Shown here in pieces: positions 19,467 through 62,092 of a DNA stretch of 64,000 nt (its first letter is position 1; each line of letters opens with the position of its first letter). Below the pieces are notes generated by a model. It saw only the letters and a program-made list of their open reading frames with translations, made no database searches and was not told the DNA's origin. This stretch comes from Polyangia bacterium. Its GTDB lineage: Bacteria > Myxococcota_A > Polyangia > Fen-1088. The stretch covers positions 3,547 to 67,546 of the forward strand of contig JBJMQQ010000121.1 of NCBI GenBank assembly GCA_045802645.1. The letters are read 5' to 3'. The position numbers and the translations under genes are program-made.

Positions 19467-22400
19467 GTCCCCTCCCCTCGGCCCGCGGCGCGGCGGACGG
19501 TCACGTAGGTTTCGCTCAGCGCAAACGCCAGCAGCTCACGGGCTGCCGCGTCGCCGGCGACGGCGGCCACACCACCAGCCCGCGCGATCGCCGCGCGCGC
19601 CGGATCGTCGATGACCAGCAGCGCAAACCGATCGGCGACCCGAAGGACCGCGGCGCGCCAGGCGTCCAGATCCAGCGGTTCGAACCCGAACCGCGAGACC
19701 TGCAGCGCCAGCGCCTTGCGATCCTTTCGGCTCAAGAGCCGACCCACATCGCGCAGCATCGCCTCGCCGGGCTTCGACAAACGCTTGGGGACCGTTCCAC
19801 CCGCCAGCACGGCTGCGCACGAAAACAGCGGGGCCAGATCGGCCGCGGGTTTCCGATCGAGGGCCCCCGCCCGCAACGCGAGCAGCGCCACCGCGCGGCT
19901 GGCCCAGAACGCCAGGTCTTCGGGGGCCGCCTTCACGTCGACCAGCAGCGCCGGCGGCGTGCGGTCGACCGGCGCGCACACAGGACCGGCCGACGCGCGG
20001 GCGAGCAGGTCCAGGCGCGGGATCTCCAGAGCCGCGGCGACCGGCCGCAACCACGCCAGCCGCGCGTCGGCGGCGGCCGGCAGCGGCTCTCCGGCGGGCG
20101 GCGGAAACAGCGCCTCCGCGACCTCCGCCAGCTGCGGCCAGATTTCGGCCGCGAAGCCACCGGCGTCCGGATCGGCCAGCGCTGCGAGCAGCGCCCGCGC
20201 CTGCTGCGGGGCGGCCGGGGGCGCCGATTCACCTCGCGGCGCAGCGACGCCCGTGGCCAGCGCGTGCACGCTGGCGACCGCTGCGTCGCCGCCGGCCTGT
20301 CCACCCCGGCGGCGCGCCTCGAGCAGCCACTCGCCGAGGCGCGCGAGCCGGCTGGCGTCCAGCGGGTTCGCCGCCAGAGCCTGTCGCAGGTCGGCGATCT
20401 CGCGCTCGATGATCTGCAGGGCCCCCCGCGCGTCCTGTCCCGCGTCGTAAAGGCCGGTCAGCAGCGCCACACCCGGTCCGAGCGGCGCCAGGTCGGCTGC
20501 CTGCCGGAAAGCAGCCGCAGACCCGGCCGCATCGGCCGCGCGGTCCCGCAGGATCTCCCCGATGCGGATCCAGCGCGACGCCTGCCCGGACGGGTCGGGC
20601 ACGCGCGCGGCGGCCGCCCGCAGCGCCTCGACGGCGCCCGCGACGTCTCCGACGGCGGACAGCACCTCCGCCAGGTGGTCCAGCGGGCGGGGATCGGCGG
20701 CCGAAACGTCGGCGGCGCGGCGCAGCGTGGTCACCGCACGCGCGACGTCGCCGCGGGCCGCGTAGCTGGACGCCAGCGCCAGGCGGGCGCCGCGGATCGC
20801 CTCTGACGTCTCGCCCGGATCCACCCCCAGCATCCCGCGGGACGCGGCGGCGTCCAACGCCAGCAGGTAGCGCTCGAGCCACTCCGACGCCGCGACCGCC
20901 TCACCGGCGGCCGTGGTGGCCTGCGCCAGCTCCCGAAGCGCGTCCAGGCTTTCTGGCTCGAACTTCAAGATCTGCTTGAAGTCTTCGAGAGCCCCCGCCA
21001 GCCCCCCTTCCACCGTGAGGCGGTGGCGGCCGCGCTCGAACAGCAGGGCCAGGCGCTCGCCCCGCGACAGCCGCGCGGCGGCCAGGCGGTACGACAGCAA
21101 TCCGTCCAGGATCTCCGCGCGCCCGGGCGCCTGCAGGTCGGAGCGCAGCAGCCGGTGGGCCTGCTCGTACGCGGGTGTGCTATCCGGATCCAGCTCGACG
21201 GCGCGCGACAGCGCCGCGATCGCGTCGTCGGCGCGGCCTGCCTGCTCGTACGCCGCGCCCGCGTCCACCAGCAGGCCGGCGGCCCGGTGTGGATCCCGCA
21301 CCAGCGCTCCCAAACGGGCCAGCGCCCGCGCCTCGCCCAGGGTGTCGCCCCCCGCCCGCGCGACCCGGCGCACGCCGCTCCACGCCTCGAGCCGCTGAGG
21401 ATCGGCGCCAATCACGCTTCCGTAGGCAGCCAGCGCCCCGGCCAGATCACCGGCCCGTTCGGCGTCCATCGCCGCCTCCAGGTGCAGGCCGATCGCCAGC
21501 GGCCCGCCGATCCGGCGGGCGCGCGCGCGACGGGGATCCGGGCGTGTCGCGGGCCAGGCGCTGCCCGCGGCGACCGGCAGGTCGGCGACGGCGGCCGCCA
21601 GACCGGGGGCGCGCGTCCGCTGCCACAGCGCCACCGCGACACGCTCGGCGATTTCGGGCCCTGCCAACCGGGCCCGCGCCACTGCGCGCGCGTAAAGCGC
21701 CAGCACCTCCGGCGTCGCTGATCCTGACGCCTCCTCCAGCGCCGTCGCCATTGCCGACAGGGCCTCGGCCGCGGCCCCGGCGTCCTGCCCACGCACGCCG
21801 GCCAGGAATTGCCAGAGGACGGCGTCCGCCCGCGCCGACGGCGTGTCGCCATCCGTGCTGGCGGGCGAAGGAACGGCGACGCCGGCCGCCAAGCTGCTGA
21901 GCGCCGCTTCGCGCGCGGCGGCCGCGGCGATAGCCGGCTCCTCGGCGCAGGCCTGCGCCAGCGCCGAGAGCGCCTGGCCGAGCGCACCGCGCTCCGCCGC
22001 CCGGTCGCCGGCAGCCAGGCGGAACAACGCCAGCGCGGCGGCGGGCGCCGTCTCGCCCAGCGGAGACTCGACGATGGCGCGCCGGAACGCGTCCGCGGCG
22101 CCCGCCGGATCGCCGGCCCGGGACAACGCCTCGCCGTAAGCCAGCAGCACGTTGGCGGGCTCCGCGATCGTGCCGTCGCCGAGGCGCGCCTCCTCGGAAA
22201 GGACCGCGATCTCCAGGATCGCGTCGCCCGAGCGCCGCGCCAGCTGGTCACTCCAGGCGCGCGCGACGGGGTCCCCCTCCGCGCGCAGCGGCGTCAGCGC
22301 GGCCACCGCTTCCGGGTACGCGCCCGCCTCGGCGTGGTGATGCGCCAGCCGAAGCCGCAGCGCGCGCACGCGTTCAGGCGACGCGTCGGTCTGCGCGGCG

Positions 22401-24589: not shown

Positions 24590-25633
24590 ATGATAGGTCG
24601 CGCCTCCGGCGGCCGGCGATCGCGGCGGCTGGGAGCCAGAACCGAGAGGCCCGACCTGCCGAACCTGCTCGTCCCCATCGACCTGCGCGACGGCGTGCCG
24701 ACGCCGCCGTCACTGTTTGCGCTCGCGGAGACGCGGCGGGTGGCGCGCGTGGCGGGCGCCACCGTCTACGCGATCGTGCTGGCGGAACGTGACCTGTCAG
24801 CCGAAACGATCGCGCAGCTCGGGCGGGCGGGCGCGGACAAGGTGCTGCTGTGTGAGGGCTCCTCGCTGGGGGCGCCTCCTCTGGAGGCGACCCACGGGAC
24901 GGCGTTGCTGGCCGCCGTCGAGCGGGTCTCGCCGCTGCTGGTCCTGTTCCCGGCGGGCGGGGCCGGCGTTTCCCTGGGCCCCAGTCTGGCCGCCCGACTG
25001 GGTGCGGCGTTCGCTGGCCCCGCGGATCTGGAGGTCAGCGAGGTCGAAGACGCCCTCCCCGACGGCATTGGACGGGTTTTCGTGCGTTTCTGGAGCGCCG
25101 GACGCACCGCGTACCGGCGACTCGACCCCGTCGACGTCGAGCGTCCGATCGTCGCCATCTTGCCGGCTGGCGGCGCGGCGGCGGCCATCGGGAGCCCGTC
25201 GATCGACCACGACGTCATCACCTGTACGCCACCGCTGGCGCCGGGCGTCGACACGTTGGCGTCGGACGCCGACGACCGGGCAGCGATCGCGCTGGCTCGC
25301 GTTCTGGTCGTCGTCGATCCCGCGTTCGGCGGCGGCGCGGTCGAGACTTTGCGCGCGGCGGCTCCGGCCGGTGTGGCCGTGGCCGACGGGGTGGCCGACG
25401 CCTCGTCCGTCGCCGCCGCCACGCCGGAGATGATGATCGTGGTCGGCGGGTCGCCGCCGCCCATCGGGACACCCCGGGCGCGGGTCGCGCTGGTCGCGAC
25501 CGACGCCGGCGCAGAGGAGAGCGGCCGGGGGGTCGACGTCGTGTGGCGCGTGCCGCCAGAAATGAGCGCCGACGTGATGATCCAGCAGCTCGCCGACGCT
25601 CTGCCGGGCCTGGCCGTGGAGACGGCGTCATGA
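24590..25633 (+). CDS. Electron-transfer-flavoprotein alpha-subunit-like protein with degenerate FAD-binding region
   Basis: In-frame ATG 24590 within ORF 24017-25633. The N-terminal domain pattern (LLVPIDLRDG...SLFALAETRRVA...VYAIVL...GADKVLL) is ETF-alpha-like. The C-terminal segment MMIVVGGSPPPIGTP replaces the canonical ...YIAxGISGxxQH... signature. Confidence 0.65.
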   Translation: MIGRASGGRRSRRLGARTERPDLPNLLVPIDLRDGVPTPPSLFALAETRRVARVAGATVYAIVLAERDLSAETIAQLGRAGADKVLLCEGSSLGAPPLEATHGTALLAAVERVSPLLVLFPAGGAGVSLGPSLAARLGAAFAGPADLEVSEVEDALPDGIGRVFVRFWSAGRTAYRRLDPVDVERPIVAILPAGGAAAAIGSPSIDHDVITCTPPLAPGVDTLASDADDRAAIALARVLVVVDPAFGGGAVETLRAAAPAGVAVADGVADASSVAAATPEMMIVVGGSPPPIGTPRARVALVATDAGAEESGRGVDVVWRVPPEMSADVMIQQLADALPGLAVETAS

Positions 25634-26307
25634 ACGTGCTCGTCTGCTTGCGTACGACCGCGCGCACGACCTCAGAGTTGCTCGACGCCGCGGACGCGCG
25701 GGCGCTGGCCCACGCGCTGCCGCTGCGGGGCGCCGGCCACACCTTGACCGCGCTCTACGTGGCCAGCGCCGCCGAGGCGGCCCCCGTCGCCGCGCGCCTG
25801 TCGCCGCACGTCGACCGTGCCGTGCGCGTCGTCAGCGACGAGGTTGCGGCGGCCGACTTTCACACGTGCGGCCAGATGCTGGCGATGGCGATCCGGCGCC
25901 TTGGCGCCGACGTCGTGCTGGCGCCCATTCAGGGCGAAAACGAAGCCGCCGGCGGAACACCCGCCGCGATCGCGCGTCACCTGGGCGCGCGCTACGTTCC
26001 GTTCGTCGAGGAGATCGCAGGCCTGGACGACGCCAACGCGGAGGTGCTCGTCCGCGGCGGCGGTCGCAAGCGCCGGCTGCGTGTGGCGTTTCCGGCCGTG
26101 ATCGGCACCGCCCCTGGCGCCGCGACGCTCCCGCCTGCGTCCGCCGGCGCCGACCCCACGCCCGTCGAGACGATCGCGCTCAACGATCCGGAGGCGACGG
26201 TCGTCCGGCGTCGCACCGAGCTCCTGGGCCGCCCCGAAAACGCCTCACGCGGAACGCAAACGGTGACTTCGGCCGCCGCACTGATCGCCGCGCTCAAGCG
26301 CGCCTAG
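25630..26307 (+). CDS. Electron-transfer-flavoprotein beta-subunit-like protein
   Basis: ATGA overlap with the previous stop. MNVLVCLR..., DRAVRVVSDE..., ADFHTCGQMLAMAIRRLGADVVLAPIQGENEAAGGTPAAIARHLGARYVPFVEEI and RLRVAFPAVIGT follow the ETF-beta fold pattern. Confidence 0.65.
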   Translation: MNVLVCLRTTARTTSELLDAADARALAHALPLRGAGHTLTALYVASAAEAAPVAARLSPHVDRAVRVVSDEVAAADFHTCGQMLAMAIRRLGADVVLAPIQGENEAAGGTPAAIARHLGARYVPFVEEIAGLDDANAEVLVRGGGRKRRLRVAFPAVIGTAPGAATLPPASAGADPTPVETIALNDPEATVVRRRTELLGRPENASRGTQTVTSAAALIAALKRA

Positions 26308-26315
26308 ACGCTCTT

Positions 26316-26416
26316 CCCCGTCCTCGTCCTCGTCCTCGTCCTCGTCGCCGTCCTCGATACTCCGACGACGACCTGCGCCAGAGCCGGAGACGAGGACGAG
26401 GACGAGGACGAGGAAG
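26316..26416. repeat. Hexanucleotide-arm inverted repeat (long perfect hairpin), copy 1
   Basis: 26321-26346 (TCCTCG x4 + TC) is the exact reverse complement of 26389-26414 (GACGAG x4 + GA), with a 42-nt loop. It fills the gap between convergent stops (TAG 26305-26307 and the cca stop 26419-26421). The 41-nt block 26316-26356 is identical to 61979-62019. Confidence 0.9.
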
Positions 26417-26418
26417 AT

Positions 26419-27828
26419 TTACTTGGGCGCTTCCGCTCGAACTTCGGGCAGCAGCGCTTCCAGCTTGTCCCGGTCGTTCAGCGACGGGTCGTCCAGCACG
26501 CGCTCGAGGAGGCGCTCGAGAATGACGCCGATTTCTCGACCAGGCGGCACACCGAGAACCCGCATCACGTCGCGGCCGTCGATGGCCAGGTCGGTCACGC
26601 GGAGTGCGGCGTCGGCGTCCGCGACCGCGCCGATGCGCCGGCGCAGCTCGCCGATCTCTACCTCCGGATCCTCGCCGAAGCCGCGCCCGCGCACGTCGCC
26701 CTCCCGCAGCGCGAACAGATCGGCCAGCCCTTCGTTGCCGCCCACGCGCCGAACGAAGCGGCGGATCGTGCCGTCGCTCCAGTCGGGCGTGTAGAAGAAC
26801 ATGTGGTTCTTGACCATCGCCACGACACGATCGCGGTCGGCGTTGGCCAGCTTCAGCCGCCGGCAGATCTCCTCGGCCATGTCGGCGCCGACGTACTCGT
26901 GCTTGAAGAAGCTGAATTCACCGGGCGCTTCCTCGCGCGGCTGGCGCGCGCGCGGTTTGCCAACGTCGTGCAGCAGCGCCCCCAGCCGGGCCACCACATC
27001 GCCGCGGGTCACGTCCACCACCGACAGCGTGTGTCCGAAGACGTCGTGCTTGTGAAACCGGTTTTGCGTGCACCCCACCCCTTCCAGCAGCTCCGGGATG
27101 ACCACGCCCAGGAGACCCGTCTCGCGCATCAGCTCCAACCCGCGTGACGGCCGCGGCGCCGCCAGCATCTTGAACAGCTCGTCGCGAATCCGCTCGGCCG
27201 AGACCTTGCGGACGACGTCCAGCGTCTGCGGGATCGCCGCCTTGGTGGGCGCGTCGATGTCGAACTCCAGCTGGGCGGCTTGCCGCACGGCGCGCATGGG
27301 CCGCAGGCCGTCCTCGCGAAAACGCATCACGGGATCGCCCACCGCGCGAATCAAGCGCCGCCCCAGATCGCCGCGACCGTCGAACGGGTCCGTGAGCCGT
27401 CCGTCGACCGGGTCGAACCCGATGGCGTTCATCGTGAAGTCGCGCCGGCTCAGATCCTCTTCCAGCGTTTGCACGTAGCTGACGGACGACGGCCGCCGCC
27501 CGTCCAGGTAGTCGCCCTCGCCGCGAAAGGTCGTCACCTCGACGGGGCGGCGCGGGCTGGCGTCGGTCAGGACCGTGACGGTCCCGTGCTTGAGGCCGGT
27601 CGGTATCGCGAACGTGTGCCCGAACAGCGCCAGCACCGCCTCCGGCACGGCGTCCGTCGCGACGTCGAAGTCCGCGGGCGGCCGACCGAGCAGCATGTCG
27701 CGCACGCCGCCGCCGACCAGGTGCGCCTGGTGGCCGGCGCCGCGCAGCCGCTGGCAAAGCCCCAGGACGTCGCCCGGGATCTGCGCCCGCAGCGCCGCGA
27801 CGGTCTGCTCGTTGGCTGGCTCGGTCAT
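26419..27828 (-). CDS. cca: CCA-adding tRNA nucleotidyltransferase (class II, HD domain)
   Basis: In-frame ATG 27828 (MTEPANEQ...) has an ATGA overlap with the rnc stop. Head-domain motif GGGVRDMLLGRPPADFDVAT and HD motif LLHDVGKP. The upstream part of ORF 26419-28443 is Arg-rich junk that overlaps rnc. Confidence 0.8.
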   Translation of the reverse strand: MTEPANEQTVAALRAQIPGDVLGLCQRLRGAGHQAHLVGGGVRDMLLGRPPADFDVATDAVPEAVLALFGHTFAIPTGLKHGTVTVLTDASPRRPVEVTTFRGEGDYLDGRRPSSVSYVQTLEEDLSRRDFTMNAIGFDPVDGRLTDPFDGRGDLGRRLIRAVGDPVMRFREDGLRPMRAVRQAAQLEFDIDAPTKAAIPQTLDVVRKVSAERIRDELFKMLAAPRPSRGLELMRETGLLGVVIPELLEGVGCTQNRFHKHDVFGHTLSVVDVTRGDVVARLGALLHDVGKPRARQPREEAPGEFSFFKHEYVGADMAEEICRRLKLANADRDRVVAMVKNHMFFYTPDWSDGTIRRFVRRVGGNEGLADLFALREGDVRGRGFGEDPEVEIGELRRRIGAVADADAALRVTDLAIDGRDVMRVLGVPPGREIGVILERLLERVLDDPSLNDRDKLEALLPEVRAEAPK

Positions 27829-28547
27829 TCGCCCTCCGCCTCGCCGCGATCGATCGCGTCCAGCGCCGCCGCCGCCGCGCTCTGCTCGGCCTCTTTCTTC
27901 GAGCGACCGGTGGCGCGTCCCAGGGCGCGGCCAGCAATGGTGAGCGCGACCTCGAACCGCTTGTCGTGATCGGGTCCGCTCGCGCCCACGACCTCGTAGA
28001 CGGGCGCCACCTGCCACAGCGCCTGCGCCCGCTCTTGCAGCCGCGACTTGAAGTCCAGGCGCGCGTGTCGCGGTAGGTCCCGGAGCTCGGGCTGGAACAG
28101 GCGCGCCGCGATCCCCCGGGCTGCCTCGAGGCCGGCGTCGAGATAGACGGCGCCGACCAGCGCCTCCAGTGCGTTGGCCAGGATCGACGGCCGCGTGCGC
28201 CCGCCTGTTTTTTCTTCGCCACGCCCCAGCAGCACGAACCGCCCCAGGTCCAGCAGCGCCGCGGCTCGCGCCAGGCCGCCCTCGCTGACCAGCGCGGCCC
28301 GCGCCCGACTGAGCTCGCCTTCGGGCGCGTCGGGGAGCTGCGCCATCAGCAGATCGCTGGTCACCAGCGCGAGCACCGCGTCGCCCAGGAACTCGAGACG
28401 CTCGTTGTCGGCGCGCCCGGCGAGCGCGGCCTCGTTGAGCCACGACGTGTGCGTCAGCGCCGTGTCCAGCAAGCTGCGGTCGCGGAAACGGTGCCCCAGC
28501 CGCTGCTCCAGCTCGGCGGCCTCGGCGGCTTGTTCTGCTCTCTCCAT
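27825..28547 (-). CDS. rnc: Ribonuclease III
   Basis: In-frame ATG 28547 (MERAEQ...). RNase III signature NERLEFLGDAVL and a C-terminal dsRBD (GPDHDKRFEV...GRSKKEAEQSAA). 240 aa. Confidence 0.9.
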   Translation of the reverse strand: MERAEQAAEAAELEQRLGHRFRDRSLLDTALTHTSWLNEAALAGRADNERLEFLGDAVLALVTSDLLMAQLPDAPEGELSRARAALVSEGGLARAAALLDLGRFVLLGRGEEKTGGRTRPSILANALEALVGAVYLDAGLEAARGIAARLFQPELRDLPRHARLDFKSRLQERAQALWQVAPVYEVVGASGPDHDKRFEVALTIAGRALGRATGRSKKEAEQSAAAAALDAIDRGEAEGE

Positions 28548-61306: not shown

Positions 61307-61953
61307 GCTGGACGCGCGAGCAGATGCTGCTGCGAGCGGCCGCCGAAGTGCAGCCCGGAGAGATCGTGAACCTGGGGATCGGCATGCCGACCGAGGTCGC
61401 CAACTTCATCCCGCCCGACCTGGGGATCATGCTGCAGTCGGAGAACGGCCTGCTGGGGATGGGCCCCTACCCCAGCGAGGAAGAGGTCGACGCGCGCCTC
61501 ATCAACGCCGGCAAGGAGACCGTCACCGCGGTGGCGGGGGCCAGCCTGTTCGATTCGGCGGCCTCGTTCGCGATGATCCGCGGCGGCCACGTCGACCTGG
61601 CGATTCTTGGCGGGCTGGAGGTGGCGTGCAACGGAGACCTCGCCAACTGGACGGTCCCGGGGCGCCTCATCACCGGGATGGGCGGCGCGATGGACCTGGC
61701 CGCGGGCGCGCGGCGGCTGGTGGTCCTGCAAAGCCACGCCTCGAAGGACGGCCAACCCAAGCTGGTCACCCGCCTCACCCTGCCCGCGACCGCCCTGGGC
61801 TGCGTGAACCGCGTGATCACCGACATGGGCGTCTTCGACGTCGGCGGCGACTGCTTCATCTGCGTCGCCAAAGCCGATGGCGTTCACCGGCAAACGATCG
61901 TAGCCGCGACGGGCGCGCCGGTTCTGTTCACGACAGCGACTTCGGGCGGCTAG
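61303..61953 (+). CDS. 3-oxoacid/acyl CoA-transferase subunit B
   Basis: ATGA overlap. VNLGIGMPT and the QSENGLLGMGP motif (catalytic Glu in SENG). Confidence 0.85.
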   Translation: MSWTREQMLLRAAAEVQPGEIVNLGIGMPTEVANFIPPDLGIMLQSENGLLGMGPYPSEEEVDARLINAGKETVTAVAGASLFDSAASFAMIRGGHVDLAILGGLEVACNGDLANWTVPGRLITGMGGAMDLAAGARRLVVLQSHASKDGQPKLVTRLTLPATALGCVNRVITDMGVFDVGGDCFICVAKADGVHRQTIVAATGAPVLFTTATSGG

Positions 61954-61978
61954 CGCCACTCCTCGGCTCCGTCTCTGC

Positions 61979-62092
<114 letters not shown>

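What the first reader, a model, noticed from the sequence alone, without database searches (positions are those of the whole stretch)
26316..26416. Long perfect hairpin built from (CTCGTC)n / (GACGAG)n hexanucleotide arms, filling the gap between convergent genes (copy 1)
Positions 26321-26346 are the exact reverse complement of 26389-26414, giving a 26-bp GC-rich stem with a 42-nt loop. Each arm is a tandem hexanucleotide microsatellite, so several slipped pairing registers are possible.

The element starts 9 nt after the ETF-beta-like stop and ends 3 nt before the cca stop on the other strand. That placement would suit a bidirectional terminator or RNA-stability element.

Its left arm plus 10 nt of loop (41 nt, 26316-26356) is identical to a second copy 35.7 kb away, so this is a dispersed repeat family rather than a chance palindrome. 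It is neither CRISPR-like nor a classical short REP, and I do not recognise it as a described element.
Basis: seen in the sequence. Interest (0 to 1): 0.6.

Follow-up and report, generated by a model that had tools for sequence, protein, structure and literature searches.

The report
Microsatellite-armed palindromic intergenic repeat element
The hairpin is real and is one of about 23 copies of a small non-coding palindromic repeat, with stems made of 6-base tandem units, that this uncultured myxobacterial lineage recently gained in the tiny gaps after gene ends; it is an unusual variant of known bacterial intergenic repeats, and no terminator role has been shown.

Summary
Window 26311-26418 is a long palindrome, CTCTTCCCC-(GTCCTC)4-GTCGCCGTCCTCGAT-centre-(GACGAG)4-GAAGAT. 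It fills the 111-nt gap between the convergent ETF-like and cca genes. It folds at -82/-90 kcal/mol (z about -8.4), and 41 nt are identical to a second copy at 61979-62019.

It belongs to a family of 23 paired elements, plus about 10 single arms, in this 5.9-Mb, 70% GC Myxococcota MAG. Copies share terminal motifs (TCTKHCCC / GGGDMAGA) and an inner module (19 of 23). Centres and unit numbers vary.

Twenty-one of 23 lie within 31 nt of a stop codon, 11 fill convergent gaps and none lies in a divergent gap.

In 21 congeners the same ETF/cca gap is usually 0-11 nt, so copy 1 is a lineage-specific gain. Presence/absence polymorphism runs in both directions among close relatives.

No copy has a U-tract, and there is no Rfam family, no coding potential, no target-site duplication and no linked transposase.

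Best reading: a REP/MITE-like palindromic element whose arms evolve by 6-nt slippage. Selection appears to confine it to gene 3' sides. An RNA 3' stem-loop is a likely consequence, not a demonstrated function.

The closest published analogue is the inverted heptamer arrays of Xanthomonas. Identical, orientation-locked hexamer arms also occur in PVC phyla, and this is unexplained.

The parts
25543..26307 (+). ETF-beta-like gene. Its stop TAG is at 26305-26307, 3 nt before the element's terminal motif.
   Evidence: ORF list. Pfam PF01012 ETF, E = 1.7e-11.
26311..26319 (.). Left terminal motif CTCTTCCCC (family consensus TCTKHCCC).
   Evidence: Sequence. Termini of all 23 copies are listed.
26320..26343 (.). 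Left arm, (GTCCTC)4, the pyrimidine-rich array.
26344..26358 (.). Left inner module GTCGCC-GTCCTC-GAT. This non-repeat signature is shared by most copies, and it accounts for the part of the 41-nt identity with copy 2 that extends beyond the array.
   Evidence: The module is present on at least one side in 19 of 23 copies.
26359..26388 (.). Locus-specific centre (the loop). It contains GCGCCAGAGCCGGA, a sequence module also seen in the centres of copies C54 and C135b.
26389..26412 (.). Right arm, (GACGAG)4, which is the (GAGGAC)n register, the purine-rich array.
26413..26418 (.). Degenerate right terminus GAAGAT (family consensus GGGGAAGAG), abutting the cca stop.
26419..28443 (-). cca / poly(A)-polymerase-family gene (674 aa). 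Its stop codon is at 26419-26421.
   Evidence: ORF list. Pfam PolyA_pol, PolyA_pol_RNAbd, HD and tRNA_NucTran2_2.
61972..62092 (.). Copy 2 of the family: TCTCTGCCCCC-(GTCCTC)4-GTCGCCGTCCTCG-centre-(GAGGAC)5-GG. It lies between the CoA-transferase stop (61951-61953) and the AcrB-family start (62161), which is a tandem gap.
   Evidence: MFE -96/-102 kcal/mol.

Best explanation
Copy 1 is a member of a young, lineage-restricted family of non-coding palindromic repeat elements, here called microsatellite-armed hairpins.

Anatomy (shown):
- An 8-9-nt terminal inverted motif, TCTKHCCC ... GGGDMAGA.
- Arms of 2-10 GTCCTC / GAGGAC units.
- An inner inverted module, GTCGCC-GTCCTC-GATCCG ... CGGATC-GAGGAC-GGCGAC.
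- A variable centre.

History (shown): the element is absent from the orthologous, ancestrally almost empty gap in congeners. Copies differ in unit number between the two arms and between species. Centres differ between loci.

Mechanism (inferred):
- The element multiplies by copy-and-insert in the manner of MITEs/REPINs, using an enzyme supplied in trans that is not identified.
- After insertion the arms change by 6-nt replication slippage.
- The palindrome centre is repeatedly broken, deleted or replaced, which leaves one-sided inner modules and single-arm remnants.
- Survivors are confined to the 3' sides of genes, above all convergent gaps, because insertions into genes and promoter regions are removed by selection.
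- The termini carry TGA/TAA or their complements, so an insertion that lands on a stop codon still ends the gene.

Consequence (inferred, not tested): read-through transcripts from either side would carry a stem-loop of -44 to -129 kcal/mol. This could block 3' exonucleases or insulate convergent transcripts. It is not a canonical intrinsic terminator.
For: Family: 13 perfect pairs and 23 paired elements with fuzzy arms, plus about 10 intergenic single arms. The shared non-repeat inner module is in 19 of 23 copies and the terminus consensus is shared. Copy 1 and copy 2 share 41 identical nt.

Gain:
- The ETF/cca gap is 0-11 nt in 13 of 21 congeners. It is 7 nt in the near relative G011 (94% cca identity), which has none of the strict-pattern elements.
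- Joined-flank BLAST and alignments show empty sites in G011, G007, G012 or G008 for at least 11 of the G000 elements.
- The converse also occurs: G007 and G012 share an element at a site that is empty in G000.
- Only 3 of 25 same-genus genomes (G000, G007, G012), and none of the 16 sampled from other families of the class, have the strict pattern.

Slippage: arm unit numbers are unequal in 18 of 23 copies. They differ between orthologous G000/G007 elements at the C154 and C194 sites.

Position:
- 21 of 23 copies lie within 31 nt of a stop codon, and 11 of 23 fill convergent gaps.
- Among gaps of 60-600 nt, the family occupies 11 of 159 convergent, 8 of 533 tandem and 0 of 332 divergent gaps. 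Fisher P = 3e-6 for convergent against divergent.

Stops inside termini are used by flanking genes at C193 (TGA), C147 and C231 (TCA), C265 (TAG) and the half-element at C56:5511 (TAA).

Not a canonical terminator: no copy has a U-tract and the terminator scan found 0 sites.

Other palindromic repeat families sit at the same kinds of site, and sometimes at the very same sites, in this genome and its relatives.
Against: - No target-site duplication is visible at any filled/empty pair.
- No autonomous partner was found. The one RAYT-like Y1 gene in G000 is not flanked by the element, and a similar gene is also present in G011, which lacks the family.
- Termini vary at two positions, which is loose for a transposase recognition site.
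- Centres are mostly unrelated between copies, unlike typical MITEs.
- Mini-palindromes or single units at 'empty' sites could be seeds of local growth. Examples are CCCCTAACCCGTCCT|AGGACGGGGTTAGGGG in G012, GTCCTCC-GACGAGGACGGGG in G011, and TCCCCCG / TCTCCCG in G011.
- The same sites are reused by different elements in different genomes. This could mean targeting of gene ends and not selection alone.
- Gene calls used for the position statistics are my own crude codon-bias calls.
Confidence: 0.6

Rival explanations
1. It is a selected bidirectional transcription terminator or mRNA 3'-end stabiliser. The hairpin is kept because it ends or protects the two convergent transcripts. The family exists because many gene ends need such a signal.
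For: - Very stable, symmetric stem-loops lie directly after stop codons, and convergent gaps are enriched.
- The arms stay free of substitutions while the centres diverge in the orthologous G007/G012 pair.
- REP elements are known to stabilise upstream mRNA (established knowledge; reviewed in PMC3733652).
Against: - No copy has a U-tract.
- At the same ETF/cca junction 13 of 21 congeners have 0-11 nt. The median convergent gap genome-wide is about 16 nt. The lineage therefore does without such hairpins.
- Only about 7% of convergent gaps of 60-600 nt carry the element.
- Arm purity is equally well explained by microsatellite slippage.
- Relatives carry an element in an apparently divergent gap. 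Elements with the same arms in other phyla sit mostly in tandem or divergent gaps, on crude calls.
Confidence: 0.2
2. Each hairpin arises in place, without transposition. A short seed palindrome or a single hexamer array at a gene end expands by slippage. The second arm is made by template switching (inverted duplication). Similarity between loci would reflect a shared mutational bias plus ectopic gene conversion.
For: - Mini-palindromes and single units occur at orthologous 'empty' sites. Single-arm states in G007 occur where G000 has a full pair, at the copy-2 and C155 sites.
- There is no TSD and no transposase.
- Centres are locus-specific.
- The same arrangement (inverted arrays of a short unit) recurs in unrelated bacteria with other units: Xanthomonas (PMC4692102) and earlier notes of this scan.
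- G012 has a hairpin built of different hexamers at the C155 site.
Against: - Non-repeat modules are shared between loci (the inner module in 19 of 23 copies, the termini, and the 41-nt identity), which independent local growth does not predict.
- Several empty sites show no seed at all, for example TAA-GCC-TTA at the C193 site.
- Subfamilies with the same variant unit, GTGATC/GATCAC, at the same position occur at five to six dispersed loci (C56, C69, C125, C147, C231, C265).
Confidence: 0.15
3. The hexamer arrays are a binding platform or signal for a host factor, on DNA or on nascent RNA, that is shared by Myxococcota and the PVC phyla. This would be why the same unit and the same arm order recur across phyla.
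For: - The exact pattern (GTCCTC)3-N30-60-(GAGGAC)3 was found in 47 loci of about 25 species-level genomes out of 185,579. All are labelled Myxococcota or PVC (Verrucomicrobiota, Planctomycetota, Lentisphaerota), apart from one contig in a bin labelled Bifidobacterium whose flanks resemble a Verrucomicrobia locus (L051/L052). Flanks and centres are lineage-specific, and only the arrays are shared.
- The reverse arm order gave 0 hits in the 26 genomes that carry the forward order.
Against: - The forward-order scan was designed around this unit, so other units were not counted.
- Within one genome the orientation is simply inherited from the founder copy, and horizontal transfer cannot be excluded.
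- G000 itself has a second hairpin family with other hexamers.
- No candidate factor was identified.
- Positions relative to genes differ between phyla.
Confidence: 0.05

Closest known systems
Inverted (convergent) pairs of intergenic heptamer arrays, GGGAATC in Xanthomonas and GGGGA(C/T)T in Nostoc (Rehm et al. 2015, PMC4692102)
   Same: - Tandem arrays of a 6-9-nt unit lie in intergenic DNA.
- 70-75 cases per Xanthomonas genome are two arrays on opposite strands in one fixed relative orientation, able to form stem-loops.
- The arrays are enriched within 50 bp of stop codons and under-represented between divergent ORFs.
- Unit number is variable, with a mode of four. In G000 perfect arrays of 4 units are also the commonest.
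- Function is unknown.
   Different: - The unit here is a hexamer without G3 tracts, so no 3-tetrad G-quadruplex can form.
- The pyrimidine-rich arm is 5' here, whereas the G-rich arm is 5' in Xanthomonas.
- Copies here share non-repeat termini and an inner module, so they look like copies of one element and not free microsatellites.
- The copy number is much lower (about 23 against about 190 arrays).
REP / REPIN / BIME elements mobilised by RAYT transposases
   Same: - They are short GC-rich extragenic palindromes, often inverted doublets that fold into a larger hairpin.
- They are concentrated after gene ends and between convergent genes.
- They are lineage-specific families.
- Proposed roles are mRNA stabilisation, termination and supercoiling.
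   Different: - REP stems are 8-15 bp with an unpaired GTAG or CGTC tag (PMC3733652). Here stems are 20-54 bp of tandem hexamers with no tag.
- REPs usually number in the hundreds of copies.
- The RAYT-like gene in this genome is not flanked by the element.
MITEs (miniature inverted-repeat transposable elements), such as Correia or ERIC
   Same: - Size is 70-160 nt.
- The ends are terminal inverted repeats.
- They are non-coding and dispersed.
- Insertion polymorphism occurs between close relatives.
- The ends can supply stop codons to neighbouring genes.
   Different: - No target-site duplication is seen.
- No parent IS with the same ends was found.
- Interiors are not conserved between copies.
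- The arms are microsatellites whose length changes.
Intrinsic (Rho-independent) terminators, including 'I-shaped' hairpins proposed for high-GC bacteria
   Same: A GC-rich hairpin lies directly downstream of stop codons and is symmetric, so it could act on both convergent transcripts.
   Different: There is no U-tract on either strand in any copy. Stems are several times longer than terminator stems. The hairpin is absent from orthologous junctions in relatives.

Membership tests
REP/REPIN (RAYT-associated) | A short (8-15 bp) imperfect stem with a conserved unpaired GTAG or CGTC tag at one end | tested here: not met
   Stems are 20-54 bp of hexamer repeats. The termini are TCTKHCCC and are themselves paired. 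Definition taken from PMC3733652.
REP/REPIN (RAYT-associated) | A single-copy RAYT (Y1 HUH transposase) gene flanked by the repeats (a REPtron) | tested here: not met
   One weak PF01797 hit (34.6 bits) lies at G000 C4:5924-6748. There are no GTCCTC/GAGGAC dimers anywhere on that contig. A similar gene is also present in G011, which lacks the family. The draft genome is 85% complete, so a missed gene is possible.
REP/REPIN (RAYT-associated) | Extragenic location with a bias to gene 3' ends and convergent gaps | tested here: met
MITE | Terminal inverted repeats | tested here: met
   The whole element is a palindrome, including the 8-9-nt termini.
MITE | A target-site duplication flanking the insertion | tested here: not met
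   Filled/empty alignments at the C193, C119, C56, C154, C194 and copy-1 sites show no direct repeat.
MITE | A related autonomous IS with the same ends | tested here: inconclusive
   No left/right arm pair encloses 0.2-5 kb in G000. The genome is incomplete and only one transposase family was searched.
Intrinsic terminator | A GC-rich hairpin followed by a U-rich tract | tested here: not met
   The scan found 0 terminator-like sites in 26000-26800. The 25 nt after all 23 copies are G/A-rich on both strands.
Intrinsic terminator | Transcript 3' ends map at the hairpin | not testable with these tools
Inverted intergenic SSR pairs (Rehm et al. 2015 type) | Two tandem arrays of one 6-9-nt unit on opposite strands, close together, in one fixed orientation | tested here: met
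   There are 23 pairs, all with (GTCCTC)n 5' of (GAGGAC)n. The opposite order gave 0 hits in G000 and in 25 other carrier genomes.
Inverted intergenic SSR pairs (Rehm et al. 2015 type) | A G-tract unit able to form a G-quadruplex (GGGNATC) | tested here: not met
   The unit GAGGAC has only GG runs.
CRISPR array | Regularly spaced direct repeats with unique spacers | tested here: not met
   The repeats are head-to-tail 6-mers and inverted arms. There are no spaced direct repeats.
Known structured RNA (Rfam) | A match at the gathering score to an Rfam model | tested here: not met
   There were 0 hits in the window at gathering score. In E-value mode only sub-threshold matches appeared, mostly to miRNA precursors, consistent with a generic long hairpin.

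The most novel reading that the evidence does not exclude
The (GTCCTC)n-then-(GAGGAC)n hairpin may be an orientation-locked module that recurs, by horizontal spread or by constraint from a shared host factor, only in Myxococcota and the PVC superphylum.

On this reading the array itself is the functional part. It could be a co-transcriptional signal in which the G-poor, C-rich arm emerges first and the SD-like GAGGA arm is never exposed unpaired. It could also be a periodic protein-binding platform. The variable flanks and centres would be passengers.
Probability: 0.1. Interest if true: 0.75.

Novelty: new variant of a known kind. Interest (0 to 1): 0.45.

Why it matters
Tandem arrays of 6-9-nt units and their inverted pairs are among the commonest unexplained features of bacterial intergenic DNA. 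This family is a clean, young case. It has an ancestral empty site, gains and absences in both directions among near relatives, half-elements and mini-palindromes. That makes it suitable for working out how such hairpins are born, copied and lost, and whether they do anything for the flanking genes.

If the cross-phylum identity of the unit and the fixed arm order reflect a constraint and not descent, they would point to an unrecognised 3'-end or DNA-structure mechanism in Myxococcota and PVC bacteria.

Practically, the elements inflate intergenic gaps and can replace native stop codons. They probably also break short-read assemblies, since orthologous sites fall on contig ends in G007 and G012.

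Tried and rejected
- Coding sequence: rejected. A 219-aa + strand ORF (25866-26525) spans the element, but it overlaps both real genes out of frame, and the orthologous gap is 0-11 nt in most congeners. Loop lengths are not consistently multiples of 3.
- Assembly artefact: rejected. Copies are internal to contigs, orthologous copies occur in independent MAGs, and the same arrangement occurs in megabase-scale contigs of other MAGs.
- Rfam: nothing at gathering score. In E-value mode only generic hairpin matches, mostly to miRNA precursors.
- CGTC-tagged REP membership: rejected, although CGTC recurs in the arms. The published CGTC REPs have 8-9-bp stems and 4-5-nt loops.
- REPtron: the RAYT-like gene is not flanked by the element.
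- A long element with a gene in the loop: the one candidate, C56:5187/5511, is a coding-region coincidence plus a half-element.
- Centre derived from the ancestral spacer: there are weak resemblances at the C54 and C154 sites only, so this is not general.
- Fixed reading-frame phase between the stop codon and the array: none found (distances).
- Sequence-string literature search: returned only primers and unrelated genes.
- Viral contigs: 0 hits in either arm order.
- Metagenome scan for strain variants of the ETF/cca junction: only 3 distant loci and no same-species contig.
- Intrastrand-triplex repeats (PMC4666352): only the abstract and outline were read. It was not pursued.

Full report
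**1. The observation**

The sequence is as described. From the ETF-like stop (TAG, 26305-26307) to the cca stop (TTA on the + strand, 26419-26421), the 111-nt gap reads ACG-CTCTTCCCC-(GTCCTC)4-GTCGCC-GTCCTC-GAT-[centre]-(GACGAG)4-GAAGAT.

The repeat finder gives arms 26321-26350 / 26385-26414 (30 nt, 97% complementary). Slipped registers are possible, as expected for tandem units. As RNA the region folds at -81.9 kcal/mol (+ strand) and -90.3 kcal/mol (- strand). Both have z = -8.4, and 0 of 200 shuffles did as well.

A 21-nt arm word occurs 13 times in the window against 0.00 expected, and all hits lie in two places. The second place, 61972-62092, is copy 2. It shares 41 identical nt with copy 1 and then diverges in the centre.

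An ETF-domain gene lies upstream. A PolyA_pol/HD (cca-type) gene converges on copy 1. A CoA-transferase subunit and an AcrB-family gene flank copy 2.

**2. A genome-wide family**

The window lies in a 5.89-Mb, 70% GC, 290-contig draft genome. Relatives carry the NCBI label 'uncultured Myxococcales'.

The genome holds 13 perfect pairs of at least 3 units. With two substitutions allowed per arm word it holds 23 paired elements. About ten further single arms lie in intergenic DNA, and a few Asp/Glu-coding look-alikes also turn up.

The common anatomy is:
- A terminal inverted motif, TCTKHCCC ... GGGDMAGA.
- Arrays of 2-10 units.
- An inner inverted module, GTCGCC-GTCCTC-GATCCG ... CGGATC-GAGGAC-GGCGAC. 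It is present on at least one side in 19 of 23 copies.
- A centre that is mostly locus-specific.

A subfamily carries the variant unit GTGATC/GATCAC at the same position in both arms at five to six dispersed loci.

Predicted RNA folds range from -44 to -129 kcal/mol, with a median of -88. Unit numbers differ between the two arms in 18 of 23 copies.

These shared non-repeat parts mean the copies are related to each other. They are not independent microsatellites.

**3. Position relative to genes**

I used my own codon-bias gene calls.
- 21 of 23 elements lie within 31 nt of the stop codon of a coding-like ORF.
- 11 fill the gap between convergent genes.
- None lies between divergent genes.

Among gaps of 60-600 nt the family occupies 11 of 159 convergent, 8 of 533 tandem and 0 of 332 divergent gaps. 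Fisher P = 3e-6 for convergent against divergent and 9e-4 for convergent against tandem.

In several cases the flanking gene's stop codon lies inside the terminal motif. Examples are C193 (TGA in TCTGACCC), C147 and C231 (TCA in GGGTCAGA), C265 (TAG), and the half-element at C56:5511 (TAA).

**4. Copy 1 is a lineage-specific gain**

Synteny of ETF-like and cca is kept in 21 congeners. The gap between the two stops is 0 nt in nine of them and 11 nt or less in 13. It is 7 nt (TCCCCCG) in G011, a near relative (94% cca identity) that has none of the strict-pattern elements. Only G000 has the hexamer hairpin.

Other genomes have other things at this site:
- G007 has a different 427-nt palindromic insert, also seen on a metagenome contig.
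- G010 has four 17-nt tandem repeats.
- G005 has a small hairpin.

A BLAST of joined flanks against four close relatives, followed by alignments, shows empty sites for at least eleven further G000 elements.

Three sites (C154, C194, C147) are occupied in both G000 and G007, but with different unit numbers and unrelated centres. In contrast, G007 and G012 share an element with a clearly homologous centre at a site that is empty in G000. That site looks like a divergent gap.

At some orthologous sites relatives carry something else:
- A single right arm in G007, at the copy-2 and C155 sites.
- A mini-palindrome made of the termini and one unit in G012, at the C154 site.
- A hairpin built of other hexamers (GTCTAC/GACTAC ... 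GTAGTC/GTAGAC) in G012, at the C155 site.
- A different 240-490-nt repeat in G011, at three sites.

The strict pattern is present in only 3 of 25 same-genus genomes and in 0 of 16 genomes sampled from other families of the class.

**5. What it is not**

- It is not coding (section 4).
- It is not an artefact. Orthologous copies occur in independent MAGs, and the same arrangement occurs in megabase-scale contigs of other MAGs.
- It is not CRISPR.
- It matches no Rfam family.
- It is not a canonical intrinsic terminator. The 25 nt after every copy are G/A-rich on both strands, and the scan finds no terminator-like site.
- It is not a classical REP. Published GTAG and CGTC REPs have 8-15-bp stems and an unpaired tag.
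- It has no REPtron. The only RAYT-like gene (C4:5924-6748) is not flanked by the element, and a similar gene is also present in G011.
- No target-site duplication is visible.

**6. Most likely mechanism**

Shown: a related family, recent gain and loss, 6-nt length changes, centre turnover, a strong bias to gene 3' sides, and stop codons in the termini.

Inferred:
- The element is copied to new sites like a MITE/REPIN, by an unidentified activity supplied in trans.
- The arrays then evolve by slippage, which also keeps them free of substitutions.
- The palindrome centre is unstable, as long palindromes generally are in bacteria. This gives one-sided inner modules, unrelated centres and single-arm remnants.
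- Selection leaves only insertions that do not hit genes or promoters.

The median convergent gap in this genome is about 16 nt. Surviving insertions in such gaps therefore inevitably abut, or replace, stop codons. Termini that carry TGA/TAA make that harmless.

The reuse of the same gaps by different repeat families in different genomes suggests one of two things. These gaps may be the few permissive sites. Alternatively, existing palindromes may attract new ones. I cannot tell which.

A 3' stem-loop on both convergent mRNAs is a certain structural consequence if the region is transcribed. Whether it stabilises or ends transcripts is untested.

**7. Wider context**

G000 has at least two more hairpin families with periodic arms.
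- The first has about 25-30 copies and the form CTCTGAGCCAGAGGGCTCGC-(GTGAGC/GAGTTC/GTGTTC)n ... The copies I examined lie about 30-50 nt after stop codons.
- The second is a small family with octamer (GACGCCAG) arms.

A scan of one genome per species (185,579 species) for (GTCCTC)3-N30-60-(GAGGAC)3 found 47 loci in about 25 genomes. All are labelled Myxococcota or PVC (Verrucomicrobiota, Planctomycetota, Lentisphaerota), apart from one contig in a bin labelled Bifidobacterium whose flanks resemble a Verrucomicrobia locus, so it is probably mis-binned. Flanks and centres there are lineage-specific, and only the arrays are shared.

The reverse arm order gave no hit in any of the 26 carrier genomes. 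Neither order was found in viral contigs.

In those other phyla the elements sit mostly in tandem or divergent gaps by crude ORF calls. The 3' bias is therefore not universal.

I cannot separate horizontal spread, common constraint and ascertainment (only this unit was searched).

**8. Comparison with what is known**

The closest published description is Rehm et al. 2015 (PMC4692102). It reports GGGAATC heptamer arrays in Xanthomonas, of which 70-75 per genome are two arrays in convergent orientation able to form stem-loops. They are enriched within 50 bp of stop codons, rare between divergent ORFs, and most often have four units. Their function is unknown.

Earlier notes of this scan report the same class, with other units, in Acidobacteriota, Clostridia, a betaproteobacterium and a Sandaracinus-like myxobacterium. 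The Sandaracinus-like case includes ends that supply stop codons. I treated these as leads. I checked the stop-codon and orientation points on this genome only.

Relative to all of these, the present family differs in four ways. The unit is a hexamer without G-tracts. The pyrimidine arm is always 5'. Conserved termini and an inner module make it look like a copied element. The identical unit also occurs in PVC phyla.

**9. Verdict**

The element is a new variant of a known kind (REP/MITE-like palindromic repeats; inverted short-tandem-repeat pairs). Interest is moderate.

Limits:
- The genome is a draft MAG (85% complete).
- The gene calls are my own.
- No strain-level comparison was possible.

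Noticed in passing
G000 contigs, e.g. C256:11228-11475, C169:22903-23028, C118:1590-1763, C161:4132-4221. The nearest copy is C107:~70140-70260, just beyond the window's end.: A second, larger palindromic repeat family of about 25-30 copies. Its form is CTCTGAGCCAGAGGGCTCGC-(GTGAGC/GAGTTC/GTGTTC)n-GAGGG ... with centres of about 36-140 nt. The arms again have 6-nt periodicity, and TGA occurs in the termini and arm units. The copies examined lie about 30-50 nt after gene ends.
   Followed up: partly
G000 C122:4204-4303, C149:26811-26874, C164:15350-15403, C69:335-472: A third small hairpin family. Its arms are built of an 8-nt unit (GACGCCAG / GGACGCCA).
   Followed up: no
L056 (G007 C389), the gap between the ETF-like and cca stops; also L123:1060-1191: In G007 the gap that holds copy 1 in G000 carries a different 427-nt insert with long inverted ends (CGCGCGCGACCGAGTCGGGGCTGCTTCGGGG ...). 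Similar sequence follows the ETF-like gene on a metagenome contig.
   Followed up: no
L096, L115, L117 (G011 C3): G011 lacks the hexamer family. It has a 240-490-nt repeat (CGCTCCGCTCAACTCTTCGGCGGGGGCGAGAGGACGGGTATTTGGTC ...) at three of the sites that hold hexamer hairpins in G000 (copy 2, C54, C155). The same gene-end gaps are therefore reused by different elements.
   Followed up: partly
L114 (G012 C621:~800-1000): At the site orthologous to G000 C155, G012 has a hairpin whose arms are built of other hexamers (GTCTAC/GACTAC ... GTAGTC/GTAGAC/GTGGAC).
   Followed up: no
L075 (G010), ETF/cca gap: Four tandem copies of a 17-nt unit (CCTTCGGGCGTCGCTGG) fill the gap in G010.
   Followed up: no
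G000 C135:~19606-19635: A (GCCCCC)5 array lies directly 5' of the left arm of one element. Several other copies have 12-nt tandem duplications of terminus plus one unit (C25, C209, C252, C194).
   Followed up: no
window 26419-28443 (-): The cca/poly(A)-polymerase-family protein is 674 aa. Its PolyA_pol head domain starts only at residue 241, so about 240 N-terminal residues have no Pfam match.
   Followed up: no
G000 C4:5924-6748: A RAYT-like / IS200-type Y1 transposase homologue (PF01797, 34.6 bits; HVH and YVLHN motifs). It is not flanked by any of the hairpin repeats. Similar genes occur in 11 of 26 congeners, with 15 matches in G009.
   Followed up: partly
G000 genome-wide: By my crude gene calls the median convergent gap is about 16 nt. 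Stop codons of convergent genes often abut, as at the ETF/cca junction in nine congeners. Most convergent pairs therefore have no room for any terminator.
   Followed up: partly
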